Origin: an uncultured Actinomycetes bacterium
GTDB lineage: Bacteria; Actinomycetota; UBA4738; HRBIN12
Assembly (NCBI GenBank): GCA_963775755.1
Contig: CAVZKB010000001.1
Span: forward strand, 80,011-144,010
Direction of reading: 5' to 3'
DNA: 64,000 bases
Shown piece by piece: positions 541 through 35,740 of the stretch. How positions within the stretch are numbered: position 1 is the first letter of the stretch; every line of letters starts with the position of its first letter. The notes beneath the pieces were generated by a model. That model searched no databases, was not told the origin of the DNA, and worked only from the letters and a program-made list of their open reading frames with translations. Both the position numbers and the translations under genes were made by a program.

Positions 541-562
541 TGACGCCGCGACTTCGGAGGTT

Positions 563-1903: not shown

Positions 1904-2952
1904 CAGTCGAGCAACCGCGCCACGACGTCCGGCCAGCGGGGCACCTCGGCGCGGACGAAGGCGTTCCCCGCGGCGCCCAGCTTGGACGCCAACTCACGAT
2001 CGGCGTGCAACCGATCGAACGCATCGGCGATCGCCTTGGGCTCGGGCTCCGTGACGAGGCCGGTCTCGCCGTCCACCACGAACTCGAGCGGGCCGCCGCT
2101 GTCGGCGAGCGTCACCACCGGACGGTCGGCCGCGAACCCCTCGAGCGTCACGTAGCCGTAGTCCTCGTCGAACGGACCGTAGTACACGGCGAGCGCACCC
2201 TCGTACAGCTGGAACAAGCGCTCGTCGGTCACGTCGATCTCGAACCGCACGCGTTGCCGGATCCCCAAGCGCTCCACCTGATCTCGGAGCGCCTGCTCGT
2301 CCGGACCCTTGCCGACCAGGACGAGCGTGACCGCGGTCTTCACGTGCTGCATCGCGTCGACCGCGAGCGATTGACGCTTCAGGCTCTCCATGCGGCTGGG
2401 GAACACGACGTACTCGCCGAGCGGGCCGGAGGGTTCGTCCATCAGATGCTCCATCACGGGCGACGGGTGATACAGGACCTCCGACGGGATCCGGAGCGAC
2501 GTCCACAGTCGGTCCTTCACGTTCTTGGAGTTGGTGAACACGCGTTTGGCCTCGTTCAACGCGAGCCGGTCGGCGTTCCACACCATGTCCCTGACCGCGG
2601 GACCGTCCTCTTGGCGGGACAGATCCGCGTAGACGGGGTGGTTCCACAACTCGTAAGCCGTCCGATGCTGGTGCATCAACCACACGATCTTGCGTTCGTG
2701 CTCGACGAGGTACGCGGGGAACTTCAGTCCGACGACCGCGTCCACCTTCAAGCCGTTCGACTCGGTGATGTCGAAGCTCCGCCACACCGCCATCTGGTGC
2801 GCGAGCTGCGAGGCCGGGTACCACTTCCCCGCGATCTGCACCAGGTCGGCGTCGTGGCCGGCCGCGCGCAGCGCGCGGACCAGGCCCTCGGCGTGCGTCT
2901 CGGCGCCGCCGCGCACGAACGCGGTCTGCGGGTGCAGGACGGCGACCCTCAC
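1903..2952 (-). CDS. glycosyltransferase family 4; true start probably GTG at 2952 (VRVAVLHPQTAFVRGGAETH...)
   Basis: Track ORF 1903..3096 has Arg-rich N-terminal extension; GTGA start/stop overlap with upstream small ORF at 2949-2952; motifs ...KWYPASQLAHQ..., ...EGFAADRPVVTLADSGGPLEFV... typical of GT4. Confidence 0.65.
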   Translation of the reverse strand: MRVAVLHPQTAFVRGGAETHAEGLVRALRAAGHDADLVQIAGKWYPASQLAHQMAVWRSFDITESNGLKVDAVVGLKFPAYLVEHERKIVWLMHQHRTAYELWNHPVYADLSRQEDGPAVRDMVWNADRLALNEAKRVFTNSKNVKDRLWTSLRIPSEVLYHPSPVMEHLMDEPSGPLGEYVVFPSRMESLKRQSLAVDAMQHVKTAVTLVLVGKGPDEQALRDQVERLGIRQRVRFEIDVTDERLFQLYEGALAVYYGPFDEDYGYVTLEGFAADRPVVTLADSGGPLEFVVDGETGLVTEPEPKAIADAFDRLHADRELASKLGAAGNAFVRAEVPRWPDVVARLLD

Positions 2953-3344
2953 GAGGGCACGTCCCCTTCGGGTTCCGAGTCGTCGGGCTCGATCTCGGCG
3001 CGCAGCCGCGCGAGCTCCGCCTCGACGGCCATGAGCCGCTCGGCGAGGCTCGTGGTCAGCTCGGCGTGATCGGCGAGCAGCCGGTCGTAGCGCCATGAGA
3101 TCGGCCTCGCCACGCGGAACAGCCGGTACTTCAGCTGGCGCCGCCAGCGCGACGTCGACGCCAGGTTGCCCTCGCCCTGCGGGATGATCACCTTCTCATC
3201 GGCGCGGAGCTGCATCGAGAGGTCGTGGAGCCTGTCGCGCACCTCGGGAGTGTCCATGCGAGCGCGCGACACACGCTCCTGGGCCCAGTAGAGCTCACGG
3301 GAGAGGTCGTCGATCGCGGGATCGTGGTCGGAGGTCGCGGCCAT
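2949..3344 (-). CDS. hypothetical 131-aa coiled-coil protein embedded in polysaccharide cluster
   Basis: ORF with coherent composition, heptad-like C-terminus (LAERLMAVEAELARLRAEI), translationally coupled (GTGA) to downstream GT4. Confidence 0.4.
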   Translation of the reverse strand: MAATSDHDPAIDDLSRELYWAQERVSRARMDTPEVRDRLHDLSMQLRADEKVIIPQGEGNLASTSRWRRQLKYRLFRVARPISWRYDRLLADHAELTTSLAERLMAVEAELARLRAEIEPDDSEPEGDVPS

Positions 3345-4248: not shown

Positions 4249-5252
4249 AGACCCGCCCCGGCCGCACGAGGCTCCGTCACGATGGGCACGTCGTGGGCCT
4301 GCCGCAGCCAGGCCAGATGATCGCGATACCACTCGACGGTACGCGCCAGGCCCTCGTCGAACGGGACCCGCGGCTCCCAACCCAGCCCGCGCAGGCGATC
4401 GGAGCCCAGGCCGTACCGGAAGTCGTGGCCGGGGCGATCCGTGACGAACGAGATCTGCGACTCGGGCACACCCGCCAACGCGCAGATCCGCCGCGCGAGC
4501 TCGACGTTCTCCAACTCGTGCCCGCCGCCGATGTTGTAGACCCCGCCCGGTCCGCCGTCATCGAGCACGGTGAGGGCGGCCTTGACCCAATCCGTCACGT
4601 ACAGGAACTCGCGTCGCTGCCTGCCCTCGCCGTAGACGGGGAGCGATCGTCCTTCGAGGGCACAGATCGCGAACGTCGGCATCACGCGCTCGATCTGGCG
4701 AGGCCCGAACGCGTTCGTCCCGCGAACGATCGCGACCGGTGCTCCGTACGTCGCAACGTACGCCGTGCACAACAGATCCGCCGCCGCCTTGCTCGCCGCG
4801 TAGGGACTGATGGGCCGGAGCGGATGCGTTTCATCGAAGACGCTGTCGTCCGGATCACCCGGTCCGTAGACCTCATCGGTCGAGAGCATGAGCATGCGGA
4901 CGTCGTACCTGCGGCTCGCTTCGAGCACGGCCTGCGTGCCGATGACGTTCGTCCGCAGGAACGCGGCGGGGTCGTCGATACTGCGGTCGACATGCGACTC
5001 GGCGGCGGCATGGATCACCGCCTGCGCGCCGGCGACCAGCCCGTCGACGATCCCGGCATCGGCGACGTCACCCAGGACGAACCGGAGGCGCGGATCGCCC
5101 TCGTGTGCCTCGAGGTTCGCCCGGCTGCCGCCGGTCGAGAGCCTGTCGAGCACGGTGACCGTGGTCGACGGGCGCTCGAGCAACGCGTCGACGAGGTGGG
5201 AGCCGATGAATCCGGCCCCGCCGGTAACGAGGACGTTGGTGTCGGGAGCCAT
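4245..5252 (-). CDS. rfbB: dTDP-glucose 4,6-dehydratase (RmlB/RfbB)
   Basis: MAPDTNVLVTGGAGFIGSHLV..., catalytic STDEVYG and YAASKAAAD motifs of extended SDR dehydratases. Confidence 0.85.
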   Translation of the reverse strand: MAPDTNVLVTGGAGFIGSHLVDALLERPSTTVTVLDRLSTGGSRANLEAHEGDPRLRFVLGDVADAGIVDGLVAGAQAVIHAAAESHVDRSIDDPAAFLRTNVIGTQAVLEASRRYDVRMLMLSTDEVYGPGDPDDSVFDETHPLRPISPYAASKAAADLLCTAYVATYGAPVAIVRGTNAFGPRQIERVMPTFAICALEGRSLPVYGEGRQRREFLYVTDWVKAALTVLDDGGPGGVYNIGGGHELENVELARRICALAGVPESQISFVTDRPGHDFRYGLGSDRLRGLGWEPRVPFDEGLARTVEWYRDHLAWLRQAHDVPIVTEPRAAGAGL

Positions 5253-5327
5253 GGTGGGACCTCGAGGAGGGACCGGGACGACAGGAGTCTACCTGGGCGC
5301 CCTACGCGGGCCCCTGGCCCGCCCTCG

Positions 5328-6500
5328 CTAGCCTTGGCTCGAGGTCGCGACCGGAGCGGCGGCTCGCAGGACCGCGGCCGTGCCACGGGCCGTCGCCTCC
5401 CACGTGAAACGCGACGCCCTCGCCACCCCCGCAGCGGAGAGCACGGCCCGCAGGTCCTCGTCGGCGACCATCTCGGACAGCGCCGTGGCGATGGCGTCGA
5501 CGTCGGACGGGTCGACCAGCACTGCCGCCTCGCCAGCCACCTCGGGGAGCGAGGACACGTTCGACGTGAGGACGGGCACTCCCGCCGCGAACCCCTCGAG
5601 CACGGGGAATCCGAAGCCTTCGTAGAGCGATGGATACGCGAGCACCGTGGCGCCCGAGAGGAGCGCGAGCTTGTCGCGCTCGCTCACGTAGCCGGTGCGC
5701 ACGATGCGGCCACGCGCACCCTCCGGCAGCAGCCCGATCGTCGCGTCGAGCCTCTCCGCCGCCTCCGGGAACCAACGGACGGGGCCGCCGGCAAGCACCA
5801 ACGACAGGTGGCGCGCGTCACTCTTGGCGAACGCCCGCACCAGGCGTTCGAGGTTCTTCCGGGGCTCGATGCCCCCGACGAACAACACGTAGGGACCGGA
5901 GATCCCGTGGCGACGCCGGACGGCGTCGACCGCGGCCTCCGGAACCGGGGCGAACGCCTCCGCATCGACGCCGTGCCGCACCACGTGCACCCGATCGTCG
6001 GGGACCGCGAAGGTGTCGCGGAGATCGTCTGCCGCCGAAGTCGAAGGCACGATGATCGCCGGCGATCCGTCGAGCGTTGCCGCGAAGCGCCGACGCCAAC
6101 GGCGGTCGATGTGTGGCGCCGACTCCGGGAAGTGCTGGAACGCGAGGTCGTGGACGATCGGCACCACCCTATCGGCGTGACGGGTCGCGGGCGCCAAGAA
6201 GTTCGTCGCCACGAACAGGTCGAAATCGACGAGCCACTCCACCCGAGGAACGCCGAGACGGTTCGAGGCGGGTTGGAAGATCCGCGCGGGGAACCGCGAT
6301 GCCTTCTCGGTCAGGTTCCGTGCACGCACGTCGGCGAAGAACCTGCGCGGGCGCAGGAGCCCACGCGCGTGCAGGTACCACGCGACGAAGTGGTCGTCGA
6401 GATCGGCGAACGGGAGGTGACGGATCAGCTGTTGAGCGTATTGGCCCACGCCGGTCCGCCGAGGGTCGAGCGCCGGCCGAGCATCGATCGCGACACGCAC
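5328..6500 (-). CDS. glycosyltransferase family 4
   Basis: ...YVLFVGGIEPRKNLERLVRAF...LAYPSLYEGFGFPVLEGFAAGVPVLTSN... (EX7E GT4 motif). Confidence 0.75.
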   Translation of the reverse strand: MRVAIDARPALDPRRTGVGQYAQQLIRHLPFADLDDHFVAWYLHARGLLRPRRFFADVRARNLTEKASRFPARIFQPASNRLGVPRVEWLVDFDLFVATNFLAPATRHADRVVPIVHDLAFQHFPESAPHIDRRWRRRFAATLDGSPAIIVPSTSAADDLRDTFAVPDDRVHVVRHGVDAEAFAPVPEAAVDAVRRRHGISGPYVLFVGGIEPRKNLERLVRAFAKSDARHLSLVLAGGPVRWFPEAAERLDATIGLLPEGARGRIVRTGYVSERDKLALLSGATVLAYPSLYEGFGFPVLEGFAAGVPVLTSNVSSLPEVAGEAAVLVDPSDVDAIATALSEMVADEDLRAVLSAAGVARASRFTWEATARGTAAVLRAAAPVATSSQG

Positions 6501-6520
6501 CCGTGAAGGCTAGCGGAGAC

Positions 6521-7579
6521 TCAGTACAGCTCGACGCGGCTCTGGTCGCCGACGACGAGCCGATGCACCCCTCCGGTGCCGGAGTGCAGCACCTCGACGT
6601 TGCGTCCGAGGATCGACGTGGCGAGACCGTGCACGTCTGCGATCCGGCAGCCCTCCATGACGATCGAATCCTCCACCGAGCTCCGCAGGATCCGCACGTC
6701 GCGTTCGACGGACACGTTCGGACCGACCACGGAATCCTCGATGACCGCGTCGGGCCCGATCGTGACGGGACCTCGCAGCTCGGAACGGATGATCTCGGCA
6801 CCGCGGGCGACCCGGACGATCCCCTCGAGCGACGAGCGCTCGTCGACCTTGCCGCCGATATCCGTGCGCGCGATCGACAGCATCACGCGGTTCGCCTCGA
6901 GCAGGTCGGATGGACGGCCGGTGTCCTTCCACCACCCGCTCACCATCTCCGCGCGAACCGTCTTGCCGTGGTCGATCAGCCATTGGATCGCTTCGGTGAT
7001 CTCGTACTCACCCCGCCACGACGGCTCCAGGGTGTCGACGGCCTCCAGGATCGAGTCGTCGAACAGGTACACGCCGACGAGCGCCAGATCGCTCACGAAC
7101 GACTTCGGCTTCTCGACCAGCCGGACGACGCGCTCCCCATCGAGCACCGCGACCCCGAACCGCTCGGGCTCCGGCACGCGCGCCAGGAAGATCTGCGCGT
7201 CGGGCCGCGTCCGTTCGAACTCGACGACGAATCGCTTCAGCCCCTCCAGCAGGATGTTGTCACCCAGGTACATCAGGAACGGCCGGCCCGCGACGAAGTC
7301 GCGGGCCGTGATGACCGCGTGCGCCAGCCCGAGGGGTTCGTCCTGAGGGATGTAGGTGACCGAGAGCCCCCACGTTGAGCCGTCGCCGACCGCGGCGCGG
7401 ATCTCGTCACCGGTCTGCCCGATCACGATCCCGACCTCCGAGATGCCGGCGTCGCGGATCGCCTCGAGCGCGTGGAACAGGATCGGCGCGCCCGCGATCG
7501 GGATGAGTTGCTTCGCGTTGGTGTGCGTGATGGGCCGAAGTCGCGACCCCTCGCCTCCGGCCAGGATCAGCGCGCGCAT
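6521..7579 (-). CDS. rfbA: glucose-1-phosphate thymidylyltransferase (long-form RmlA with C-terminal left-handed beta-helix); start at internal ATG (MRALILAGGEGSRLRP)
   Basis: Nucleotidyltransferase signature GGxGxRL, LbH-like C-terminus; track ORF 6521..7711 carries junk N-terminal extension. Confidence 0.8.
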   Translation of the reverse strand: MRALILAGGEGSRLRPITHTNAKQLIPIAGAPILFHALEAIRDAGISEVGIVIGQTGDEIRAAVGDGSTWGLSVTYIPQDEPLGLAHAVITARDFVAGRPFLMYLGDNILLEGLKRFVVEFERTRPDAQIFLARVPEPERFGVAVLDGERVVRLVEKPKSFVSDLALVGVYLFDDSILEAVDTLEPSWRGEYEITEAIQWLIDHGKTVRAEMVSGWWKDTGRPSDLLEANRVMLSIARTDIGGKVDERSSLEGIVRVARGAEIIRSELRGPVTIGPDAVIEDSVVGPNVSVERDVRILRSSVEDSIVMEGCRIADVHGLATSILGRNVEVLHSGTGGVHRLVVGDQSRVELY

Positions 7580-7595
7580 CAGGACTCCGCCTGCA

Positions 7596-8993
7596 TCAGG
7601 ACTCCGGCGGGATGCAGGGCGTCGATCCGCCGCCGCTGCCGACCGGCTGCAGGTGGAAGTTGCCCGTGATGAACATCGCGACGGGGCTCCCCCGCAACAC
7701 CTTGTCCGCAACCTCGAGCAGCGGCAGGTTGGGGAAGTACTTCTGCACCACCTCGGCGTCGCTCTGGTGCCCCGGCTTGTACGCGATCACGGATCCCTTG
7801 ACGTCGGCGCCGTACGACGCGTAGTCGACGATCGCAGGAGATGTATCGAATCCGGCGTCGTTGAGGATCTGCTCGACCTCAGCGGCCGTCCCCGCCGAGT
7901 CGTGGTCGACGACCGGGACGACGATGTTCGCCTCGGACGGAGCTGTTCCTGCCAGGTTCTGACCCAGGTCGCCGAGCGGCTTGCCCTGTCGGATCCTGGC
8001 GAAGATCTGCTGGTCGACCGGGTCCGGGAACAGCACCGACAGGCTTCCCTCGAACCCGCCGACCCCGGGTACCGCGCGGAACTCCACCGCGCCCGTCGAG
8101 ATGCCCTCGAGTTGCTTCACCAGATAGATGACATCCGCGAGATCGAACCCCCCGTCAGCGACCAGGTTCCTGGCCACCGGACGGATGAGCGACGGGGCTT
8201 TCGCGATCTCACCCGGCGAGAGGAGCCGGTTCAACACCGCGCGCAGGAACTGCTGCTGCCGTCCGATCCGTGCGAAATCCGGAACGACGTCGCACGGCTG
8301 GTGGCGGGTGCGCACGTAGGCGAGCGACTGGTAGCCGTTGAGCGTCTGACATCCGGCCTTGACGTTCAGCCCCGTGAGCGGATCCGACATCGCCGCAGGG
8401 ATGCACATCGTGACCCCACCCAACGTGTCGACGATGCCCTGGAACCCGGCGAGGTCGACGTACAGCACGTGGTTGATCTTGAGGCCGGTCAGTTGTTCGA
8501 TCGTCTTGGCGACCCGTTGGGCGCCGAACCCCGCCAATCCACCCGAGAACGCTGCGTTGATCTTGTCCATCCCCACCCCGGGGATGTTCACCCAGAGGTC
8601 GCGCGGGAACGACAGCACGATCGCCTTCTGCAGCTTCGGATCGGTGTGGACGAGCATGATGACGTCGGATCGCTGGGATCCGCCGATGTCCGCGTTCGTT
8701 CCGAACTGCACCTGTTCCTCGGGTGTGAGCCCGGCCCGTGAGTCGCTCCCGAGGATCAAGTAGTTGCAGACGTTGTCGACGCACGGACCGAAGTCTCGCT
8801 GTTCGGGGCTACCGCTCGGCGCCGGCGACGGTGGGATGCGCGTGATGCCTCCTTGCGCTTGGAGATAGCCGACGTACGCGTACGCCGACACCGCGGCGAC
8901 GACGAGCGAGAGGCTCGCCGTGATCCCGATCAGTGCGCGCATGAACGCGCGATCGGCGTGGGGCGACCGCTGGTGATCCGGCTCGGAACTCAT
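7596..8993 (-). CDS. LytR-CpsA-Psr (LCP) family cell-wall glycopolymer ligase, N-terminal TM anchor; start at internal ATG (MSSEPDHQ...)
   Basis: TM helix LIGITASLSLVVAAV then LCP core (...YLILGSDSRAG...SDVIMLVHTDP...LSFPRDLWVNIPG...). Confidence 0.75.
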   Translation of the reverse strand: MSSEPDHQRSPHADRAFMRALIGITASLSLVVAAVSAYAYVGYLQAQGGITRIPPSPAPSGSPEQRDFGPCVDNVCNYLILGSDSRAGLTPEEQVQFGTNADIGGSQRSDVIMLVHTDPKLQKAIVLSFPRDLWVNIPGVGMDKINAAFSGGLAGFGAQRVAKTIEQLTGLKINHVLYVDLAGFQGIVDTLGGVTMCIPAAMSDPLTGLNVKAGCQTLNGYQSLAYVRTRHQPCDVVPDFARIGRQQQFLRAVLNRLLSPGEIAKAPSLIRPVARNLVADGGFDLADVIYLVKQLEGISTGAVEFRAVPGVGGFEGSLSVLFPDPVDQQIFARIRQGKPLGDLGQNLAGTAPSEANIVVPVVDHDSAGTAAEVEQILNDAGFDTSPAIVDYASYGADVKGSVIAYKPGHQSDAEVVQKYFPNLPLLEVADKVLRGSPVAMFITGNFHLQPVGSGGGSTPCIPPES

Positions 8994-9134
8994 CGCATCC
9001 AAGCGTACCTGTGGCGCACGAACGGACCCGCCGAACGTGCGTGGCATTCCTGTGGCAGCGCGGGGCGCACCCACGGGGGGGAGCCCGCCGATTAGGATGG
9101 CCGCGAGCCGGACACACCGGGCGCGAGGGGGAAG

Positions 9135-9971
9135 ATGATCAGGGATCCGATCCGGGCGCTCGTCGTCGGCATCGACGACGAGCTCCTCCGAGAGCTCACG
9201 AATGAAGAGGGGTTCACCGTCGATCGCGTCGAGCGACTCGACGGCGACGCAACACCCGACGTGAACGCCGTGATCCTCTCACTGTCGGGCGAACCTCTCG
9301 AGGCGCTCGCAACGGTTCGCGCGAAGGCGCCCACAGCGGCCGTGGTCGTCATCACGGACCCGGCCAACGCGGCCGACGGCACGGTTGCGATGCATGCGGG
9401 AGCCGACGACCATCTGGTTCGCGGCTCGATCCCACCGGGGATGCTTCCACGCGCCGTCCGGTACGCCGTCACCGTCCGGCGGCTGCGTCGCGAGCTCACG
9501 ACCCAAGATGACGAAACGGGCCTGCCCAACCTCCGCGGGTTCGCACCGATCGCCGAGCACCACCTGCGGATGGCCGATCGCGCCCACACGCCGGCCGTCT
9601 TCCTGTTCGTGCGTCTGGAGGGACTGCGGGATGCGGCGGACGCAGAAGAAGCGGCCTCCCTGGCGCGCGAAGCGGGCGCCTTGGTGCTCGAGGCCGTCCG
9701 CGACTCGGACGTCCCCGCAAGGATCAGCGCCGATACGTTCTGCGTCCTGCTGACGGGCGAGGCGCACGGGGCCGAGGCGCTCGTGCTCTCGCGCCTGGTG
9801 GAGTCGATCGCCGTGAACGACGCTCGTCAGGACCAGCCGCGGCACCTCTCCCTGTCGGTCGGGACGTCCCTGTACGACCCGGACCAGCCGAGCACCCTCG
9901 AGCAGATCATCTCGACCGCCGATCGCCGGCTGGCCGCGCAAGCCGCACCCGGACGATCCGAGGGGCGATGA
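9135..9971 (+). CDS. pseudo-receiver (REC-like) + degenerate GGDEF domain protein, candidate c-di-GMP effector
   Basis: REC-like N-terminus lacks phospho-acceptor Asp (AVILSLSGEP); GGDEF A-site replaced by SADTF while the upstream RxxD I-site is preserved with canonical spacing (RDSDVPARISADTF vs RESDLVARLGGDEF). Confidence 0.6.
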   Translation: MIRDPIRALVVGIDDELLRELTNEEGFTVDRVERLDGDATPDVNAVILSLSGEPLEALATVRAKAPTAAVVVITDPANAADGTVAMHAGADDHLVRGSIPPGMLPRAVRYAVTVRRLRRELTTQDDETGLPNLRGFAPIAEHHLRMADRAHTPAVFLFVRLEGLRDAADAEEAASLAREAGALVLEAVRDSDVPARISADTFCVLLTGEAHGAEALVLSRLVESIAVNDARQDQPRHLSLSVGTSLYDPDQPSTLEQIISTADRRLAAQAAPGRSEGR

Positions 9972-10084
9972 GCCAGCGCGGCGAGCGAACGTCCCGCCGG
10001 ATCCGGACCGGATGGCCCCACCATTCCGCCGGGGGAGCCCGACCATAGAGATCACAGCTTCATCGCGAGCGCAAGGAGGTCCCG

Positions 10085-10537
10085 ATGAGCGGACGAGTGG
10101 TGGCTGGGGTCGACGGGTCGGACACCGCGAAGAAGGCGGTGCGCTGGGCCGCGAGGGAGGCCAAGCTCCGCGGATCGAAGCTCGAGCTCGTCTCGGCGTG
10201 GGAGATCCCGGTCTACGGCTTCGCATACGACCAGGGCTACGCCGCGATGTCGGAGGAGATGTTGAAGGGCCTGGTGGACAACGCCGAGGAGTACCTCGCG
10301 GCTGCGGTCACGGAAGCCCGCTCGGAGGCGCTCGAAGTCGAGATCGAGACCATCACGGTGGAGGGACAGGCGGCGAACGTTCTCGTGGACGTCTCGAAGG
10401 GAGCGGACCTGTTGGTGATCGGATCGCGAGGCCTCGGCGGGTTCCGTGAGCTTGTGCTCGGCTCCGTGAGCCAGCAGTGCGCGCAGCACTCCACCTGCCC
10501 GGTCGTGATCGTGCGGCACATGGACGAGACGACCTGA
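10085..10537 (+). CDS. universal stress protein (UspA family)
   Basis: ...LVIGSRGLGGFRELVLGSVSQQCAQHSTCPVVIV... ATP-binding Usp motif. Confidence 0.85.
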   Translation: MSGRVVAGVDGSDTAKKAVRWAAREAKLRGSKLELVSAWEIPVYGFAYDQGYAAMSEEMLKGLVDNAEEYLAAAVTEARSEALEVEIETITVEGQAANVLVDVSKGADLLVIGSRGLGGFRELVLGSVSQQCAQHSTCPVVIVRHMDETT

Positions 10538-10653
10538 TCGCCACCGGCGGCGCGACGACCTGATCGCGTCGACCGAAACCCCTGCAAGGGATCGAGGACA
10601 TGACGAAGGCGGGGCCGCAAGGCCCCGCCTTCGTGTTCCTCGCCTGAGGTGGG

Positions 10654-11283
10654 TCAGGCGAGTTGACCGTGGACCGTGGTGACGTCTCCGTGCTGGAACT
10701 TCGTCCCCCTGTGCCATGGCGTCCCGAGCGCGGGGAGCGCGAACCGGTCGAGCCCGTAGTAGCCGGCGTTCCGCCAGGCCAGGATCAACAGGACCTCGAC
10801 AACAAGGAACACCGGGTTCACGCCGGCGACACCGGCCAGGCCGAACGAGAAGTTCAGCATGGCGCCGAAGAACGCCGCGATCCCGACGAACAGGCCGAGG
10901 ATCAACGCGATACCGATGGCCGCCTCGGCGATCGGGATGACCTTGGAGAAGACCCCCGCGGGGCCGGGGTGCCCCAGCCAACGCAGGAACGCCGCGTACC
11001 ACCCGTAGTTGACCGACGAGTTCGCGCCCTGGCCCGCGTTGCCTGCCGCGTAGGCGGCGAACCCCTGCAGCCCCTTCGTGCTCCTGAACCAGGAGTCGCT
11101 CGTGTACGCGAAGTGCCAGGTCCAGAACCCACCTCCGGTGCCGGTGATCTTCTCGAAGCCTGCATGCAGCCACTGGTAACCGAGCCACACGCGCGCCACC
11201 AGCCACAGCCATGCGGCCGCGGGAGAGGAGAGGAGCCACACCGCGAACCTCGGCTCCTCGAACGTCACTTCCTGCTTCTGCAT
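10654..11283 (-). CDS. DoxX family membrane protein
   Basis: four predicted TM helices, Trp/Tyr-rich loops, DoxX-like layout. Confidence 0.55.
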   Translation of the reverse strand: MQKQEVTFEEPRFAVWLLSSPAAAWLWLVARVWLGYQWLHAGFEKITGTGGGFWTWHFAYTSDSWFRSTKGLQGFAAYAAGNAGQGANSSVNYGWYAAFLRWLGHPGPAGVFSKVIPIAEAAIGIALILGLFVGIAAFFGAMLNFSFGLAGVAGVNPVFLVVEVLLILAWRNAGYYGLDRFALPALGTPWHRGTKFQHGDVTTVHGQLA

Positions 11284-28908: not shown

Positions 28909-29922
28909 GTGCCGGTGCGCGATCCCGCCTTCACGGTCGCGTCGGGCGCCGCGGCTACCATGGGCGACATGGCGCGCATGTTCGTCGAGGGATGGGCCCC
29001 CGAGTACGGGGCGCCGTTCGATCCGGACGAGCAGCTGGCGCCCGCCGAGGGAACCATCGATGCGACCGTCGAGCTGATGGACTGGGAGCCCCTCGAGGGC
29101 GCCGATGACGGCGCCGATCGGATCGCGTTCGTCGACGGCGTGCGCCGCGTGGACGCCCGCCTCCTGATGGACGACCCAGCCGGTGGCCCGATCCCCGGGA
29201 TCTGCGGGACGTTCGCGGTGGGCGCGACCCTTTGGCACCGGACGCAGCGCCGGTCCGAGATCACGAGCGTCCGGGTCGAACGGTGGGCGGTCCTGGCGGG
29301 CGGCCGCGTCGAAGAGCTGCCGGCTGTTGACCTGGATCCGCCGTACCGCTCCACGACCACGCCGTCAGACGATCCTTCGCATCTGATGACGGAGCTCCAC
29401 ACCCGGATGCGCCGAGCGGAGGGCGAGCTGGCGACGCAACTCGCCGACGGCGCGTTCGTGGTCGCCGACGGTCCGCTCAACAAGCCGCTCGCGCCGCTGC
29501 CGGTCGTCGGCTATATCAAGAGCCATCGCGTGACGTACCTGCCGCTCGAGCAGAACGCCGTCGTCGCCGAGCTCGCCCGTGGACAACGCACGCCGTTGTT
29601 CACGATCTCGGCCGATCGGCCCGACGTGTCTCGCTACTCGTGGTACGTGCGCCTCGCGATGTTGCGCGGCGGCCACTCGTGGACCGGCATCGTCCGGTGC
29701 GAGGCCTCGGGCCGCCTGCCGACGGACGAGGTCCGCGTGATCGCCGACCGCACCGCGGCGCTCCTGCCGATCGTGGGCTCGGAGCCGCACATCGATCCCC
29801 GCGCACCGCAGAACCTGGTGCCGATCGGCGCGCTCGAGCGCGAGCTGCGTCATCGCATGGGCGACCAGGGCTTGGTCTATCGCGCTCTCCGTCAGGCAGT
29901 CAGTGAGCGCGAGGCATCGTAG
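28909..29922 (+). CDS. nurA: NurA-like 5'-3' nuclease (RNase H-like fold)
   Basis: NurA catalytic motifs IAFVDGVRR and FVVADGPL (hhxDGS pattern), about 330 aa, located immediately upstream of HerA-like ATPase. Confidence 0.6.
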   Translation: MPVRDPAFTVASGAAATMGDMARMFVEGWAPEYGAPFDPDEQLAPAEGTIDATVELMDWEPLEGADDGADRIAFVDGVRRVDARLLMDDPAGGPIPGICGTFAVGATLWHRTQRRSEITSVRVERWAVLAGGRVEELPAVDLDPPYRSTTTPSDDPSHLMTELHTRMRRAEGELATQLADGAFVVADGPLNKPLAPLPVVGYIKSHRVTYLPLEQNAVVAELARGQRTPLFTISADRPDVSRYSWYVRLAMLRGGHSWTGIVRCEASGRLPTDEVRVIADRTAALLPIVGSEPHIDPRAPQNLVPIGALERELRHRMGDQGLVYRALRQAVSEREAS

Positions 29923-30275
29923 AGATCACCTCGGCCCTCGCTCATCCGATTTCCCAGCATCGTCCGGGTGTGCATACGGCTCGTGCACGACGGTCCACTA
30001 CAAGTCGGCCACCCGGGCTCACATCGAGTCGTTGGGATACGACATCGTGGCCAATTCGGCGACCAGTTCAGCGACCTGGTCGGCGGGTTCGCGACCGCAC
30101 GTTCAAGATGCCCAACCCGAACTACTTCCTGCCCTAGACGGTCCACGGTCGAGCGCTCCCCGGGGCTCTGCGGACGAACGCGGGTCCGCAGCCCGGGGGC
30201 GTCCGACGGCGCGGCTACGATACGCCCCATGGGGTGGTGCACGATCGTCGTGGGGTTCATCGACGAGGACGACCG

Positions 30276-32012
30276 ATGACCGGCGACGGCGTCGGACGGG
30301 TCCTCGGCTCGGAGCACTCGAACACCAGCGAGTTCCGCGTGGTGCTCGACGACGACGAGTACCTCCAGCTCGACGACCTCATCGTGGTGCGGACCCAGGT
30401 CCCGAAAGCGGGCGAGGTCGCCACATACGGCGTCGTGACCGAGGCCGAATCGGTCTACGAGGGCGCCTCGTATGAGTCCGACACGCATCGGGTCGCCGAG
30501 CTCGGCATCATGCCCGCCGCGAAGGTCCGTTCCGCGCGCGTGGCCGTGACCCGCGTCGATCCCGAGATCTGGGTCTCGCCAGATCCGGGCGAGGTCGTGC
30601 AACGCGCCACCGGCGAGGAACGCTCGAAGGCGCTGTACCTGGACGAGATGGGCAGGCCGCTCCCGATCGGGATCGGTCGCGACGGCGAGCCGGTCTCCGT
30701 CGACCTCGACTTCTTCGACGGCCGCAAGGGCGGCCACATGTCGATCAGCGGCATCAGCGGCGTCGCGACCAAGACGTCGTTCGCCCTGTTCTTCCTGCGG
30801 ATGCTCACCGGGCATCCGGGCGTGGTCGGCGAGGGCGCGTCCAACCTCCGCGTGCTGGTGTTCAACGTGAAGGGCGAAGACCTCCTGTGGCTGGATAAGC
30901 CCAACCGGTCCTTCGACGACGAGGCCGCGGCCGGCTGGGCGGTGCTCGGCGTCGAGCCCGGACCGTTCCCGTCTGTGCGGTTCTGGGCGCCGCCCAGGAG
31001 ACGTTCCGGCGACGTCGTCGTGCCCGACACCGGCGGGCGGCAGGAGGGTGTCGACGTCTTCAGCTGGACGCCTCGCGAGTTCGTCGACGAAGACTGCCTG
31101 CAGTTCCTGTTCACCGATGCGAACGACTCGAAGAACCAGATCCCGTTCGTCCGCGAACGCGTGCAGTCGCAGTTGAAGCGGTTCTCCGTCGACGTCGTGG
31201 GGATGCCTGGTGCGGTCGTGCTCCGCGACCCGCGCGACGCGCCCGACGGGAGCTGGCGTGGTCAGCAGGTCCAGGCGCAGCCCGGCGAGCGGATCGTCAC
31301 CGACCTGCTCACGCTCGTCGGCGCGCTCGGCGAGTTCCTGGAGCCCGAGGACGGCTCGGAGCCGGACTGGGCGTGGAGCGGGCGCGTCATGGGCGGCACG
31401 ATCTCCGCGTTCATGCGAAGGCTGCACGCCGGCGCCGCACGGATGGGCCAGTTGGTCAGGGCCGGCGAGAGCCGCCGCATCGATCGTTCGAAGGCGAGCG
31501 TGACGGTCGTCGCGATCCAGTCGTTGCACGATCAGGCACAGCGGTTCGTGGTCGGTGCGCTGCTGAACGAGGCGTTCCGCGAGAAGGACGAGTCCGGGCA
31601 GCGCCTGCCCCTGTCGGTCGTCGTGCTGGACGAGCTCAACAAGTACGCCCCGCGCGAAGGCACCGGTCCCCTGAAGGACATGCTCGTCGACATCGCGCAA
31701 CGCGGGCGGTCGCTCGGGATCCTGCTCGTCGGCGCGCAGCAGACGGCCTCGCGCGTGGCATCCGAGGTCTTGGAGAACGCCGCCATCCGCGTGAGCGGCC
31801 GCCTGGACGCCGCCGAGGCCGAGCGCGCCGAATACGGCTGGATGCTTCCCTCCACACGCGCTCGAGCCCGGCTGTTGAAGCCCGGAACCATGGTCGTGTC
31901 GCAGCCGGCGATCCCCGTGCCGCTCGTCGTGACGTTCCCGTTCCCGCCGTGGGCCACCAGGAAGGAGGAAGTGGCGACGGACGCCGACGGCGATCCGTTC
32001 GCGGGGCTGTGA
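30276..32012 (+). CDS. herA: HerA-like FtsK/HerA-superfamily hexameric ATPase/helicase; start ATG 30276
   Basis: N-terminal HAS-barrel (GRVLGSEHSNTSEFRVVLDDDEYLQLDDLIVV), central P-loop region (HMSISGISGVATKTS, atypical), Walker B VVVLDELNKY, C-terminal arm. Confidence 0.6.
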   Translation: MTGDGVGRVLGSEHSNTSEFRVVLDDDEYLQLDDLIVVRTQVPKAGEVATYGVVTEAESVYEGASYESDTHRVAELGIMPAAKVRSARVAVTRVDPEIWVSPDPGEVVQRATGEERSKALYLDEMGRPLPIGIGRDGEPVSVDLDFFDGRKGGHMSISGISGVATKTSFALFFLRMLTGHPGVVGEGASNLRVLVFNVKGEDLLWLDKPNRSFDDEAAAGWAVLGVEPGPFPSVRFWAPPRRRSGDVVVPDTGGRQEGVDVFSWTPREFVDEDCLQFLFTDANDSKNQIPFVRERVQSQLKRFSVDVVGMPGAVVLRDPRDAPDGSWRGQQVQAQPGERIVTDLLTLVGALGEFLEPEDGSEPDWAWSGRVMGGTISAFMRRLHAGAARMGQLVRAGESRRIDRSKASVTVVAIQSLHDQAQRFVVGALLNEAFREKDESGQRLPLSVVVLDELNKYAPREGTGPLKDMLVDIAQRGRSLGILLVGAQQTASRVASEVLENAAIRVSGRLDAAEAERAEYGWMLPSTRARARLLKPGTMVVSQPAIPVPLVVTFPFPPWATRKEEVATDADGDPFAGL

Positions 32013-32046: not shown

Positions 32047-33216
32047 ATGAAGATCCTCCACACGTCGGACTGGCACATCGGCAAGAGGCTCGGCCGTCAC
32101 GAGCGGATGGACGAGTTCCACGATGTCCTCGCAGAGGTCGAAGGCATCGCCGACGAGCACCGCGTGGACCTGGTCATCGTCTCCGGCGACGTGTGGGATC
32201 GGCCCGTCCCACCGACGGATGCGCTCGCCCTCGGCCTCCAGACGCTCCTGCGCCTGGCGGTGCGCCGCCCGGTGATCGCCGTGGCCGGGAACCACGACTC
32301 CCCGGAGTTCTTCGAGGCGCTCGCGCCGCTGCTGCGCCCCCTCGGGGTCCACTTGGTCGGCAACGTGTATCGCCCCGACGACGGTGGGATCATCGGACCC
32401 GACGAGCTCGGTGGTCTCCCGGTGGTCGTCGCGTGTTTCCCGTTCCTGCGGGAGGGACGGGTGGTCGACTTCATGAAGGACGCCGGCGAGTGGTACCGGG
32501 GGTACGCGGATCGCATCGCGGCGATCACCGGCCACTACAACGAGGAGCTCGTCAAGCGCGCAGGCGCCGACCTGGTGCCGATCCTCGTCGCGCATTTCCT
32601 CGTGAACGGTGTGAAGGTCGACCGCGAGGCCCCGCGCGGGGAGCGCGAGCTCCACATGGGAGATGCGTACGCCGCGACCCCGCAGGCCATCCCGGCAGGT
32701 CCTCAGTACGTGGCGATGGGACACATCCACGCGCCGCAGCGGGTGCCGGGCTCACCGGTGCCCGCGGAGTACGCGGGCTCGTTGTTGGCGCTCGACTTCG
32801 GAGAGGCCGGGGAGCAGAAGCGGGTCGTGCTCCTCGACGCCGAACCGGGACGGCTCGCGGTCGCGGAGAGCGTGCCTCTTCGGAGCGGGCGCCGGCTCGT
32901 TCGGGTCAACGACACGTGGGACGCGATCGAGGCGCGCGCCGACGAGCTCGCGGGGGCGTTCCTCGATCTCACCGTGAAGACGAGTGGCACGGATATGTCG
33001 CTCGCGGAGCGGGCGCACGAGACGTTCCCGTTCCTGGTCCGGGTACGCGCGCAACGACCCCTCGGTGCCGATCGCGAGCGGCTCGCGAAGGGCCATCGTT
33101 CGTGGGAGGAGCTGTACGCGGAGTACTACCGGCGCGAGCATGACGAGGACGCTCCCGGCGATCTGTTGACCCTCTTCCGCGAGGTGCTCGAGGAGGCCAC
33201 CGATGCGACCGCTTGA
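32047..33216 (+). CDS. sbcD: SbcD / Mre11-family DNA-end nuclease (calcineurin-like phosphoesterase)
   Basis: MKILHTSDWHIG, …IVSGDVWD…, …AGNHD…, …GHIHAPQ… metallophosphatase motifs I-V. Confidence 0.85.
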   Translation: MKILHTSDWHIGKRLGRHERMDEFHDVLAEVEGIADEHRVDLVIVSGDVWDRPVPPTDALALGLQTLLRLAVRRPVIAVAGNHDSPEFFEALAPLLRPLGVHLVGNVYRPDDGGIIGPDELGGLPVVVACFPFLREGRVVDFMKDAGEWYRGYADRIAAITGHYNEELVKRAGADLVPILVAHFLVNGVKVDREAPRGERELHMGDAYAATPQAIPAGPQYVAMGHIHAPQRVPGSPVPAEYAGSLLALDFGEAGEQKRVVLLDAEPGRLAVAESVPLRSGRRLVRVNDTWDAIEARADELAGAFLDLTVKTSGTDMSLAERAHETFPFLVRVRAQRPLGADRERLAKGHRSWEELYAEYYRREHDEDAPGDLLTLFREVLEEATDATA

Positions 33217-35740
33217 GCTGACCCTGGAGGGGTTCCGCTCGTATCGCGAGCGGGTGACGTTCGACTGGCGCGGCCGGCGGCTGGTGGGGATCGTGGGCCC
33301 GATCGGCTCCGGGAAGTCGTCGATCCTGGACGCGGTCTCGTTCGCGCTCTACGGCAAGACCCCGCAGGTGGAGAGCGCCACGAAGTCACTGATCCACCAG
33401 CTGGCCGAGCAATCGCACGTCGAGCTGCGGTTCCAAGTGGACGGCCAGGTCTGGCGAGCGGTGCGATCGCTCCGCCGCAAGGGCGCGTCCGGCCATCAGC
33501 TTTCGCTGCTCGCAGACGACACGCCGGATGCGGCGACGCTCGAGGTCGTCACGCTCGAAGGTCCGATGAACGAGCGCATCGAGCAGCTGCTCGGCATGGA
33601 CTTCAAGACGTTCTGCCGCTCCGTGCTCCTGGCACAGAACCGCTTCGCCGAGTTCCTCAAGGCGACGCCCACGCAGCGGGACGCGGTCCTGAAAGGGGTG
33701 TTCGGGTTCGAGCGGCTCGACGACGCGCTCCGCGTGGCCCGGTGGCACCTGGAGCGAGCCGATCTGGAGCTCGCGTCCCTGCAGAAGGAGCGCGAGCGCG
33801 TGGACGAGGCGCGCATCGAGCTCGGCCAGGCTCGCGAGGCGGCGGAGACCACCCGCGCCCGATCGACCGCGCTCGAAGCCGCTGGACCCGAGGTCGAGCG
33901 GCTCGAGAAGGAGCGCGACGCCGCCGCGGGAGAGGCCGAGACCTCGGCCGCTCGGATCGGCGCGTTGACCGAGATCGCGGGGGGGCTGCCGTCGGAGGCG
34001 GACGTTCGTTCCGTGGTCGAGTCCGCGCTCGAGGCGGGAACCAGGATCGCCGCAGCCAAAGCGGCCGCCGATGACGCGGAGCGGGACAGGCGGGCACGTG
34101 AGGCCGAGCTGGCCGACGTGGCATCGCGTCTGGGCGACCGCGAGCGCTTCCGTTCGTTCGAACATCTGGTGCAGACCCACGAGCGGCAGGTCGAAGCGGT
34201 GCAGGCCACCGGTGTCGAGGTGGAACGCATGGACGAGGAGCTCGCCTCCGCGCGCGCCTCGCTGGAAGAACGGTCGGCGGCGGGCAAAGACGCCGAGGAC
34301 GCGCTCGACGCCGCCGACCGAGCCCTGGCCGGCGCCCTGGTCGCCGTCGAAGATGCGCGGAAGGCGTTGATGGACGCCGCGCATGCGGAGATGGCGCACG
34401 AGCTCCGTTCGACGCTCATCGCCGGCGAGCCGTGCCCGGTCTGCCGGCAAGAGGTCCATGCCGTTCCCAGGGCCGGGGCCGCGCCCAAGGTCGCGGCCGC
34501 GCGGAAGGCGCTCACCAAGGCGGAGAAGGTCGAGGCGACCGTTCGGGCCGACAAGGAGCGGTGCGCATCGACCGGAGCGTCGATGCGCACCGCGATCGCG
34601 GAGGCGGAGAGCCGCATCGGGAAGGCGGAGGCCGACCGAGCCCGGGCGGACACGGCGCGGGCAGCCGTCGAGGCCGACCTCGCCGCCACCAAGAGCCAGC
34701 TGATCGAAGGACTCCACGGAGAGGGTGACTTCCGCTCCCTCTTCGAGGCCCGGCAAGCAGAGCTGACGGCCGCGGAGCGCGCGTTCGAGCAGGCTCGCAC
34801 GGCTCTCGAGCTGACCCGCGCGGGAGTCGAGGAGGCGGAGCACCTCGCCGAGGGAGCGGGCGAGGCGATCGCCGCGATCGCCAACCGGTTCTCGGGACTC
34901 TGGGGACGTCTCGACGAGGATCGAGACGTCCCGCGGGACCCCGACGCGATCACGGCGTCGTTCTCGGAGCTCCGAGCGACGATCGTCGCGCGCCACGACG
35001 AAGCGGTCGCGACGCGCGAGACGGCGAGCGCCAGGGTCGACGAGGCGAACGAGGCGCGCTCCGCCCTGCTGGCAACGGTCGGACTCGCTCCCGCCGACGA
35101 TTTCCGGCGGGCGCTCGCGGAAAGCGCCATGGCCCACGGGACGGCGACCGCCCACGTGCAGCAGCTGGAGGAGCGGATCGCATCCGCGAGCGAGCTCGAA
35201 CGCCAGGTGATGGTGTGCGAGGCACGCCGCGCCGTCGCGAAGCGGCTCACCGACGACCTTCAGCCGTCGCGCTTCTTGGGCTTCCTCCTGCGGGAGGAAC
35301 GCGCAGAGCTTGCGGAGCTCGGGAGCGATCACTTCGCAGAGCTGAGCGACGGCGCCTACCGGTTCACCGACGACGATCGCTTCGACATCCTCGACCTGAA
35401 CGCCGCGAGCACGAAGCGGAAGGCCGACTCACTCTCTGGTGGGGAGACGTTCCTGGCGTCGTTGGCGCTCGCCCTCGCGCTGGCGGAGATGGTCGCGCGG
35501 GGTGGTGGTCGGCTCGATTCCTTCTTCTTGGACGAAGGCTTCGGGAGCCTCGACCCCGAGCACCTCGACCGGGCGATGGATGGCATCGGGCGCCTGGTCT
35601 CCGAGAACGAACGCCGCCTCGTCGTGGTCGTCAGCCATGTGGCCGAGATGCGCGAGGCGATCGAAGACCTCATCGTCCTCGAGAAGGACGACGTCACGGG
35701 CGACACGGTGGTTCGATCCGGCGTTGGCCCCGCTGCGTGA
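33203..35740 (+). CDS. sbcC: SbcC / Rad50-family ATPase with coiled coil and zinc hook
   Basis: Walker A GPIGSGKSS, long coiled coil, zinc-hook CPVC, ABC signature LSGGETFLASLALALAL, D-loop FFLDEGFGSLD. Confidence 0.9.
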   Translation: MRPLELTLEGFRSYRERVTFDWRGRRLVGIVGPIGSGKSSILDAVSFALYGKTPQVESATKSLIHQLAEQSHVELRFQVDGQVWRAVRSLRRKGASGHQLSLLADDTPDAATLEVVTLEGPMNERIEQLLGMDFKTFCRSVLLAQNRFAEFLKATPTQRDAVLKGVFGFERLDDALRVARWHLERADLELASLQKERERVDEARIELGQAREAAETTRARSTALEAAGPEVERLEKERDAAAGEAETSAARIGALTEIAGGLPSEADVRSVVESALEAGTRIAAAKAAADDAERDRRAREAELADVASRLGDRERFRSFEHLVQTHERQVEAVQATGVEVERMDEELASARASLEERSAAGKDAEDALDAADRALAGALVAVEDARKALMDAAHAEMAHELRSTLIAGEPCPVCRQEVHAVPRAGAAPKVAAARKALTKAEKVEATVRADKERCASTGASMRTAIAEAESRIGKAEADRARADTARAAVEADLAATKSQLIEGLHGEGDFRSLFEARQAELTAAERAFEQARTALELTRAGVEEAEHLAEGAGEAIAAIANRFSGLWGRLDEDRDVPRDPDAITASFSELRATIVARHDEAVATRETASARVDEANEARSALLATVGLAPADDFRRALAESAMAHGTATAHVQQLEERIASASELERQVMVCEARRAVAKRLTDDLQPSRFLGFLLREERAELAELGSDHFAELSDGAYRFTDDDRFDILDLNAASTKRKADSLSGGETFLASLALALALAEMVARGGGRLDSFFLDEGFGSLDPEHLDRAMDGIGRLVSENERRLVVVVSHVAEMREAIEDLIVLEKDDVTGDTVVRSGVGPAA

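What the first reader, a model, noticed from the sequence alone, without database searches (positions are those of the whole stretch)
30750..30785. HerA-like ATPase carries a non-canonical P-loop
Where HerA/FtsK proteins have HxxIxGxTGSGKS, this protein reads HMSISGISGVATKTS: one extra residue and Ala/Thr replace the Gly before the Lys. Walker B (VVVLDE) and the downstream arginine/sensor regions look intact. This is either a functional P-loop variant typical of a distinct bacterial HerA clade, or a sign of altered nucleotide specificity or regulatory rather than motor function.
Basis: seen in the sequence. Interest (0 to 1): 0.5.

Follow-up and report, generated by a model that had tools for sequence, protein, structure and literature searches.

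The report
Bacterial HerA with one-residue-longer P-loop
The odd ATP-binding loop is real, but it is the normal, strictly conserved signature of the bacterial NurA-partnered HerA DNA motor, whose Deinococcus member has the identical loop, a solved ADP-bound structure and proven ATPase activity, so the finding is essentially ordinary.

Summary
Window 30750-30785 (+) encodes GISGVATKTSFA in a 578-aa gene (30276-32012). The protein has no canonical GxxxxGK[ST] and only one K[ST] dipeptide. The gene sits in a nurA-herA-sbcD-sbcC cassette.

The loop is not a defect. Deinococcus radiodurans HerA (PDB 7F6D, 7WRW, 7WRX; phmmer E 2.7e-119, about 41% identity, TM 0.90) carries the identical ISGISGVATKTS. 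In its ADP complex K175 binds the beta-phosphate and T176 binds Mg2+. K175 and Walker-B mutants lose ATPase and resection activity, and the enzyme is stimulated by DNA and NurA (PMC9960219).

In a census of 312 homologues from many bacterial phyla, every one has the loop one residue longer than canonical. A sister subclade reads G-x-x-G-x-G-T-K-[ST]. The extra residue is therefore the Thr just before Lys, and the window's Ala replaces the canonical second Gly. Codons vary synonymously while VATKTS stays fixed.

The verdict is a new member of a known kind, of low interest. Two residual points remain. The accessible literature does not remark on the extended loop. Pfam and NCBIfam have no model for this family.

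The parts
28909..29922 (+). nurA (NurA-family nuclease). The ORF starts at GTG 28909. The real start is probably ATG 28969 (MARMFVEGW...).
   Evidence: phmmer against PDB hits D. radiodurans NurA 7f6d_H at E 4.4e-25 and Thermotoga TM1739 (1zup) at E 7e-11. There is no Pfam or NCBIfam hit. The start is inferred from conservation with L001.
30276..32012 (+). herA (bacterial, NurA-associated HerA-type hexameric DNA-translocase ATPase), 578 aa
   Evidence: PDB 7f6d_B/7wrw/7wrx (drHerA): E 2.7e-119 with the single sequence and 1.1e-221 with the family profile. The AF2 model has pLDDT 93 and pTM 0.91. Foldseek gives TM 0.90 to drHerA and TM 0.5-0.6 with probability 1.0 to archaeal and defence HerAs.
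30750..30779 (+). Extended Walker A / P-loop G159-I-S-G162-V-A164-T165-K166-T167-S168, one residue longer than GxxGxGK[ST]
   Evidence: sequence; identical in drHerA, K175/T176; gap before K against canonical HerA; 312 extended, 0 canonical. One search gives beta-strand 155-158, loop 159-164 and a helix starting at T165. Searches give the roles of the Lys and Thr in the drHerA-ADP crystal.
30864..30881 (+). N-V-K199-G-E201-D202 at the end of beta2. It aligns with drHerA K217 and the catalytic acidic residue D220.
   Evidence: Alignment. K199 is invariant and D202 nearly invariant in A1. The roles come from PMC9960219.
31617..31634 (+). Walker B V-V-V-L-D452-E453
   Evidence: It aligns with drHerA D487/E488, whose mutation abolishes ATPase.
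31647..31661 (+). A-P-R460-E-G. R460 aligns with drHerA R495, the pore DNA-binding arginine.
   Evidence: Alignment and the figure legend.
31701..31712 (+). R476-G-R478-S. R478 aligns with drHerA R513, the trans-acting arginine finger.
   Evidence: Alignment. R478 is invariant in A1.
32047..33216 (+). sbcD (Mre11-type nuclease)
   Evidence: TIGR00619 sbcd 5.3e-44 and Pfam Metallophos 5.9e-16.
33203..35740 (+). sbcC (Rad50-type ABC ATPase), with a canonical Walker A, GPIGSGKSS
   Evidence: TIGR00618 sbcc 4e-61, plus AAA_23, SMC_N and SbcC_Walker_B. Sequence.

Best explanation
The protein is an orthologue, in an uncultured Actinomycetota genome, of the bacterial NurA-partnered HerA typified by Deinococcus radiodurans DR_0837. 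Its GISGVATKTS is a working Walker A that is one residue longer than the canonical loop. K166 contacts the beta/gamma phosphates and T167 ligates the metal. D452/E453 (Walker B), E201/D202 and the trans arginine R478 complete the site at the subunit interface. By homology, the hexamer threads DNA through its pore into a NurA dimer docked on the HAS-barrel face. ATP hydrolysis there is stimulated by DNA and NurA and drives 5' end resection, here probably together with the co-encoded SbcCD. The extra residue is a Thr inserted immediately before the Lys in the common ancestor of a large bacterial clade. The window's subclade later changed the preceding Gly to Ala. Shown directly: the sequence, its conservation, the homology, the fold and the synteny. 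Taken from the literature on the orthologue: nucleotide contacts, ATPase and resection. Inferred: the same activity in this protein, and cooperation with SbcCD.
For:: drHerA has the identical ISGISGVATKTS, E 2.7e-119 over the full length. [quoted passage not shown] They also report that K175 and D487/E488 mutants lose ATPase and resection, that the E487A/E488A mutant is inactive, and that ATPase is stimulated by ssDNA, dsDNA and NurA (up to 70-fold); a confident model with TM 0.90 to 7wrw/7wrx, and a strand-loop-helix at residues 155-179; 312 of 312 homologues have the extended loop; synonymous codon variation with invariant VATKTS in 72 DNA versions; the sister subclade reads GxxGxGTK[ST]; nurA-herA-sbcD-sbcC is conserved in 71 of 80 related loci, with the rest cut by contig ends or, in L002, lacking nurA, and also on two distant plasmids; the clade spans Actinomycetota, Deinococcota, Cyanobacteriota, Chloroflexota, Rokuibacteriota, Desulfurellaceae, WS2, Poribacteria and Pyrinomonadaceae.
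Against: There is no biochemistry on this protein itself. drHerA is a poor Mg-ATPase, 10-100-fold below Sulfolobus HerA, and it improves with Mn2+, so the loop may carry a kinetic cost that nobody has measured. The ADP complex is at 3.4 A and the gamma-phosphate state was not captured. The papers I could read call the motif simply 'Walker-A' and do not analyse the extra residue. AF2 confidence dips over residues 161-170 (mean pLDDT 80). Cheng 2015, Xu 2022 and Iyer 2004 were not available.
Confidence: 0.85

Rival explanations
1. The loop is functional but has consequences. The Thr insertion and the Gly-to-Ala change reshape the phosphate-binding loop so that basal Mg-ATP turnover is throttled, with altered metal or nucleotide preference. 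Hydrolysis then depends on NurA and DNA. This refines the best explanation rather than excluding it.
For: With Mg2+ drHerA is 10-100-fold slower than Sulfolobus HerA, is enhanced by Mn2+, and is stimulated up to 70-fold by NurA plus DNA. Thermus HepA is reported to have kcat about 0.05 per s, but I could not check its loop. The insertion is strictly conserved in 312 of 312 homologues, which implies it is selected and not merely tolerated.
Against: The authors offer a different structural reason for the low activity: residues 220-260 of the helix bundle partly occlude the ATP site. Archaeal HerAs with canonical loops also have low stand-alone ATPase. No mutant that removes the extra residue has been reported in the papers read.
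Confidence: 0.25
2. The P-loop is degenerate. The protein binds but does not hydrolyse nucleotide and serves as a scaffold or regulator for NurA/SbcCD rather than as a motor.
For: It fails the canonical GxxxxGK[ST] pattern. The N-terminal half, including the loop, matches no Pfam model and no PDB chain other than drHerA.
Against: The orthologue with the identical loop hydrolyses ATP, and its Walker A and Walker B mutants lose ATPase and resection. The Lys, Thr, Walker B Asp/Glu, catalytic acidic residue and arginine finger are all invariant or nearly so. Degenerate sites normally lose these residues.
Confidence: 0.04
3. The motif is an artefact: a mis-registered motif, a sequencing or assembly error, or a pseudogene.
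For: None found. A few database homologues are frameshifted gene calls, which shows such errors do occur in this high-GC group.
Against: The reading frame is open over 578 codons and collinear with drHerA. The same loop is encoded in 72 independent DNA versions. No alternative Walker A exists in the protein.
Confidence: 0.01

Closest known systems
Deinococcus radiodurans HerA (DR_0837; PDB 7WRW apo, 7WRX ADP, 7F6D NurA-HerA complex)
   Same: The two proteins are collinear over the full length (about 41% identity, TM 0.90). They share the identical P-loop ISGISGVATKTS, Walker B LDE, NVKGED, APREG and RGRS motifs, and a NurA gene immediately upstream.
   Different: The window gene is followed directly by sbcD-sbcC in one cassette, an arrangement reported for Oceanithermus but not for Thermus. 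drHerA R154, proposed as a gamma-phosphate contact from the neighbouring subunit, is Asp in the window protein (alignment). The host is an uncultured Actinomycetota lineage.
Archaeal HerA (Sulfolobus solfataricus 4D2I; Thermococcus kodakarensis 9X1L/9X1M)
   Same: The architecture is the same: a HAS-barrel, a RecA-like ASCE core and a helical insertion. Both partner with NurA and are genomically linked with Mre11/Rad50-type genes.
   Different: Identity is only 12-16% and TM 0.5-0.6. Sequence profiles align only the Walker-B-to-C-terminal part. By general knowledge of the FtsK/HerA family, archaeal HerAs have the canonical GxxGxGK[ST] loop. A canonical loop was shown directly here only for the defence HerA 9c1m_M. 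The NurA contacts are ionic in bacteria and hydrophobic in archaea.
Anti-phage HerA ATPases (Sir2-HerA/Nezha, DUF4297-HerA; PDB 8SUB, 8J4U, 8ZIQ, 9C1M)
   Same: They share the HerA fold (Foldseek probability 1.0, TM about 0.5-0.6) and similar Walker B, arginine and C-terminal regions.
   Different: They have a canonical P-loop (9c1m_M: GSTGSGKS). Their partner is a Sir2 or DUF4297 effector rather than NurA/SbcCD. The PADLOC HerA models match only the C-terminal part of the protein, at 1.9e-7 and 0.0054; the best PADLOC hit, mad8 at 4e-8, spans residues 129-516.
Other non-canonical Walker A loops (my own recollection, not tested here): MCM GDPxx[AS]KS, dethiobiotin synthetase GxxxxxGKT
   Same: They are precedents showing that replacing the Gly before the Lys, or lengthening the loop by one residue, is compatible with catalysis.
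   Different: They belong to different P-loop lineages. None combines a Thr insertion directly before the Lys with a Gly-to-Ala change as seen here.

Membership tests
Canonical Walker A P-loop ([AG]-x4-G-K-[ST]) | Eight-residue pattern with Gly immediately before the Lys | tested here: not met
   A regex over the whole protein finds no match. The only K[ST] is in GISGVATKTS, which is one residue longer and has Thr before the Lys.
Bacterial NurA-associated HerA (drHerA type) | Full-length sequence and fold homology to D. radiodurans HerA | tested here: met
   phmmer E 2.7e-119 over residues 17-581 of the ORF. Foldseek TM 0.90 to 7wrw/7wrx.
Bacterial NurA-associated HerA (drHerA type) | Extended Walker A G-x-[ST]-G-x-[AG]-[TAS]-K-[TS] with the catalytic Lys and Thr | tested here: met
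   The loop is identical to the drHerA loop and is present in 312 of 312 clade members examined.
Bacterial NurA-associated HerA (drHerA type) | Walker B D-E, the beta2 acidic residue, the trans arginine finger and the pore arginine | tested here: met
   D452/E453, E201/D202, R478 and R460 align with drHerA D487/E488, E219/D220, R513 and R495.
Bacterial NurA-associated HerA (drHerA type) | NurA nuclease gene adjacent in the same orientation | tested here: met
   The upstream ORF matches drNurA 7f6d_H at E 4.4e-25. nurA lies next to herA in 78 of 80 related loci.
Bacterial NurA-associated HerA (drHerA type) | Hexameric ring; DNA- and NurA-stimulated ATPase; translocation-coupled 5' resection | not testable with these tools
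   Known only for drHerA. It needs biochemistry on this protein.
HerA/FtsK superfamily as modelled by the Pfam and NCBIfam profile libraries | Significant match to a curated HerA-type profile | tested here: not met
   No Pfam family matches even at E<=10. NCBIfam gives only a sub-threshold EccCa match. No Pfam domain is precomputed for any of the 240 listed homologues.
HerA/FtsK superfamily (structural definition) | N-terminal HAS-barrel plus a RecA-like ASCE core with an inserted helical domain | tested here: met
   Foldseek probability 1.0 to archaeal HerA 9x1m/4d2i and to defence HerAs over about 600 aligned columns.
Anti-phage HerA systems (Sir2-HerA, DUF4297-HerA) | HerA paired with a Sir2 or DUF4297 effector; match to the PADLOC HerA models | tested here: not met
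   The neighbours are nurA and sbcDC, not Sir2 or DUF4297. The PADLOC HerA hits are weak and C-terminal only, and the NurA ORF has no PADLOC hit.

The most novel reading that the evidence does not exclude
The Thr inserted before the Walker lysine is an ancient shared derived character of a phylum-spanning bacterial NurA-HerA(-SbcCD) clade. It acts as a built-in throttle: it distorts the phosphate-binding loop so that Mg-ATP hydrolysis is very slow until NurA and DNA binding remodel the site, and it shifts metal preference towards Mn2+. That would explain the unusual enzymology of drHerA and give a one-residue switch to test.
Probability: 0.15. Interest if true: 0.45.

Novelty: new member of a known kind. 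Interest (0 to 1): 0.2.

Why it matters
The main result is a clarification. An apparently broken ATP-binding motif in an annotated 'ATP-binding protein' is the normal signature of a characterised DNA-end-resection motor, so it should not be read as a pseudo-ATPase. Two modest practical points follow. First, the family can be recognised by H-x-x-[IV]-x-G-x-x-G-x-[AGS]-[TAS]-K-[TS]-[TS] followed by N-V-K-G-E-D. Pfam and NCBIfam currently have no model for it, so thousands of these genes across many phyla are left as 'ATP-binding protein' or 'hypothetical'. Second, the one-residue insertion is a clean handle for asking why bacterial HerA is such a slow, Mn-preferring, partner-dependent ATPase.

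Tried and rejected
- **Another Walker A in the protein.** I looked for a canonical motif elsewhere and found none.
- **Pfam, NCBIfam and PADLOC scans.** Pfam gave nothing even at E<=10. NCBIfam gave only a sub-threshold EccCa match. PADLOC gave weak matches: mad8 at 4e-8 across residues 129-516, and two HerA models covering only the C-terminal part.
- **The 73-aa P-loop segment alone against PDB at E<=10.** The aim was to obtain alignments to canonical P-loops. It hit only drHerA and a spurious designed repeat protein. The register therefore rests on the profile alignment to 9c1m_M, the sister-subclade sequences and the AF2 secondary structure.
- **Literature.** The string GVATKT occurs in no paper of the library. 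A search for 'HerA / Walker A / non-canonical' gave nothing relevant. Cheng 2015 (PMC4438212), Fujii 2018 (PMC6060359) and Iyer 2004 (PMC521647, doi 10.1093/nar/gkh828) are not held. I therefore cannot say that nobody has remarked on the loop.
- **Thermus HepA.** I could not check whether it has the same loop, because no sequence was accessible.
- **The nurA-herA spacer.** Rfam and sigma-70/terminator scans found nothing.
- **Anti-phage defence HerA system.** I considered this and rejected it on gene neighbourhood and the PADLOC results.

Full report
**1. What is at the coordinates**

- Window 30735-30779 on the + strand reads HMSISGISGVATKTS, and 30750-30785 reads GISGVATKTSFA.
- The motif lies in the ORF 30234..32012.
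- Nearly all homologues are 576-582 aa. In the closest relative (L001, 96% identity) the start overlaps the stop of the upstream gene. The real start is therefore ATG 30276, giving 578 aa.
- In that numbering the loop is G159-I-S-G162-V-A164-T165-K166-T167-S168.
- The protein has no [AG]xxxxGK[ST] anywhere and only this one K[ST] dipeptide. VVVLDE is at residues 448-453.

**2. What the gene is**

- Pfam returns nothing for this protein even at E<=10. NCBIfam gives only a sub-threshold EccCa match.
- Against PDB sequences it matches one protein strongly: D. radiodurans HerA (7f6d_B, 7wrw, 7wrx). The score is E 2.7e-119 over the full length, or 1.1e-221 with a family profile.
- An AlphaFold2 model built on 41 diverse homologues is confident (pLDDT 93, pTM 0.91).
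- The model superposes on drHerA at TM 0.90. Archaeal HerA (9x1m, 4d2i) and anti-phage HerAs follow at TM 0.5-0.6 and 12-16% identity.
- The upstream ORF (28909..29922) is NurA: drNurA 7f6d_H at E 4.4e-25 and Thermotoga TM1739 at 7e-11.
- The two downstream genes are sbcD (32047..33216) and sbcC (33203..35740).
- The order nurA-herA-sbcD-sbcC is kept in 71 of 80 related loci from Actinomycetota and Acidimicrobiia MAGs. The other nine lack one or two of the genes, mostly because contigs end. In L002 an acid-phosphatase gene sits directly upstream of herA and no adjacent nurA was detected.
- The same arrangement was noted for Oceanithermus profundus.

**3. Is the loop a defect?** No.

- The drHerA chain has the identical ISGISGVATKTS. 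Counting along the alignment puts its Lys at 175 and its Thr at 176. These are the residues described in PMC9960219.
[quoted passage not shown] D487/E488 coordinate the metal, and R513 acts in trans.
- The paper states that mutation of K175 and of D487/E488 impaired both ATPase and resection, citing Cheng 2015, which I could not read. The E487A/E488A mutant is inactive.
- ATPase is stimulated by ssDNA and dsDNA, and up to 70-fold by NurA.
- The window protein keeps all the corresponding residues: K199, E201/D202, D452/E453, R460 and R476/R478.

**4. How general is the loop?**

| Set of homologues | Identity range | Extended loop | Loop consensus |
|---|---|---|---|
| 120 closest homologues | 78-97% identity to the window protein | 119 scored, all extended | One cluster (P0054) has Ser for the first Gly |
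| 150 best representatives of 50%-identity clusters | Down to 34% identity to the window protein | 79/79 with an intact region | G-[IVM]-S-G-[VI]-A-[TAS]-K-T-[ST] |
| Sister subclade, seeded from plasmids of Aulosira and Candidatus Chlorohelix (25-28% identity to the window protein, same four-gene cassette) | 49-96% identity to the Aulosira query | 114/114 | Mostly G-M-A-G-[VA]-G-T-K-[ST]-[ST] |

- In the second set, the five apparent exceptions are frameshifted gene calls.
- In total, 312 homologues have the extended loop and none has the canonical one.
- The sister subclade retains the canonical second Gly, so the inserted residue is the Thr next to the Lys. The Ala of the window-type loop is a later Gly-to-Ala change. 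This agrees with the HMMER alignment to the canonical GSTGSG-KS of 9c1m_M.
- It also agrees with the AF2 model, where the strand ends at residue 158, the loop is 159-164 and helix alpha1 starts at T165.
- Across 72 distinct DNA versions, the V, A, T, K, T and S codons vary synonymously while the amino acids never change.
- Named members come from Euzebya, Streptomyces, Nonomuraea, Deinococcus pimensis, Rokuibacteriota, Desulfurellaceae, WS2, Nostocales, Leptolyngbya, Halothece, Poribacteria, Pyrinomonadaceae and Chloroflexota.

**5. Mechanism**

- The best-supported reading (confidence about 0.85) is that this is a working, clade-typical Walker A in a hexameric DNA translocase.
- By homology, the translocase feeds DNA into a NurA dimer for 5' resection, probably acting with the co-encoded SbcCD.
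- What is shown here is the sequence, conservation, homology, fold and synteny. The nucleotide contacts and activities come from the Deinococcus orthologue. Their transfer to this protein, and the cooperation with SbcCD, are inferences.

**6. What remains open**

- With Mg2+, drHerA is 10-100-fold slower than Sulfolobus HerA, and Mn2+ helps. Whether the longer loop contributes to this is untested.
- The authors instead point to partial occlusion of the ATP site by residues 220-260.
- The papers I could read report no data on nucleotide specificity. I give the 'throttle or altered specificity' refinement about 0.25, a degenerate or regulatory site about 0.04, and an artefact about 0.01.

**7. 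Novelty and score**

- The protein is a new member of a known kind.
- The loop itself is present in deposited structures, so it is not new. However, the accessible papers call it simply 'Walker-A', and the string GVATKT occurs in no paper of the library. The explicit statement that the whole bacterial clade has a Thr-inserted nine-residue loop may therefore be a small addition.
- Several key papers were unavailable, so I cannot exclude that this has been noted before.
- Interest is 0.2.

**8. Side observations**

The nurA-herA spacer and the missing Pfam and NCBIfam models are listed under 'noticed in passing'.

Noticed in passing
window 29923-30275: There is a 353-bp spacer between the nurA stop and the herA start. 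In the closest relative, L001, the two genes overlap (GTGA), and the median gap in 78 loci is 29 bp. The part at about 29975-30150 is a frameshifted remnant of the 3' end of a HAD subfamily IIIB acid phosphatase gene. That gene is intact directly upstream of herA in L002 (ORF 2051..2899; Pfam PF03767, E 3.3e-33)..
   Followed up: partly
window 30196-30279 and 28940-28990; L001 5020-5060; L002 and L007 upstream of herA: The last ~80 nt of the spacer duplicate the region just upstream of nurA (GCGCGGCTAC[C/G]ATA[G/C]GC..CATG). This stretch is invariant in front of herA in the window, L002 and L007. TACGAT (30216-30221), 7 nt, then ATG 30229 looks like an actinobacterial TANNNT -10 box with a leaderless start. 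It opens a 16-codon mini-ORF (MGWCTIVVGFIDEDDR) whose TGA overlaps the herA ATG (ATGA). The same logic places the nurA start at ATG 28969. This is inference from sequence only; the sigma-70 consensus scan and Rfam found nothing.
   Followed up: partly
window 30276-32012 and 28909-29922: Neither the bacterial HerA nor its NurA is recognised by any Pfam or NCBIfam model (for HerA, none even at Pfam E<=10). All 240 listed homologues have no precomputed Pfam domain, and sources name them 'ATP-binding protein' or 'hypothetical'. This is an annotation gap for a family with about 1,600 50%-identity clusters.
   Followed up: yes
L081 (Aulosira laxa plasmid6, 3795-10957) and L082 (Ca. Chlorohelix allophototropha plasmid, 3927-11167): A sister subclade of the cassette (nurA-like, herA, sbcD, sbcC) is carried on plasmids of Cyanobacteriota and Chloroflexota. 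One plasmid is typed mobilizable (MOBV). The P-loop there is GxxGxGTK[ST], which retains the canonical second Gly. This suggests the cassette moves horizontally.
   Followed up: partly
protein P0054 (homologue, 82% identity; cluster of 115 member sequences): The first Gly of the loop is Ser (HMSISSISGVATKTS). The first glycine is therefore less constrained than G162, A164, K166 and T167.
   Followed up: no
L002 (CAVRSI010000052.1) 1-3033: In this MAG, whose HerA is 96% identical, no nurA was detected next to herA. An acid phosphatase gene sits there instead. Either nurA is elsewhere in the genome or the cassette has been rearranged.
   Followed up: no
window residue D145 of HerA (about 30708-30710) versus drHerA R154: drHerA R154 was proposed to contact the gamma-phosphate from the neighbouring subunit. 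It aligns with Asp in the window protein and is not conserved in the family consensus, so that contact is not a family-wide feature.
   Followed up: no
representatives P0167, P0202, P0203, P0245, P0253: Several database homologues are frameshifted gene calls. The sequence upstream of the P-loop is translated in the wrong frame, which is typical of high-GC metagenome assemblies. They would look like P-loop-less variants if taken at face value.
   Followed up: partly
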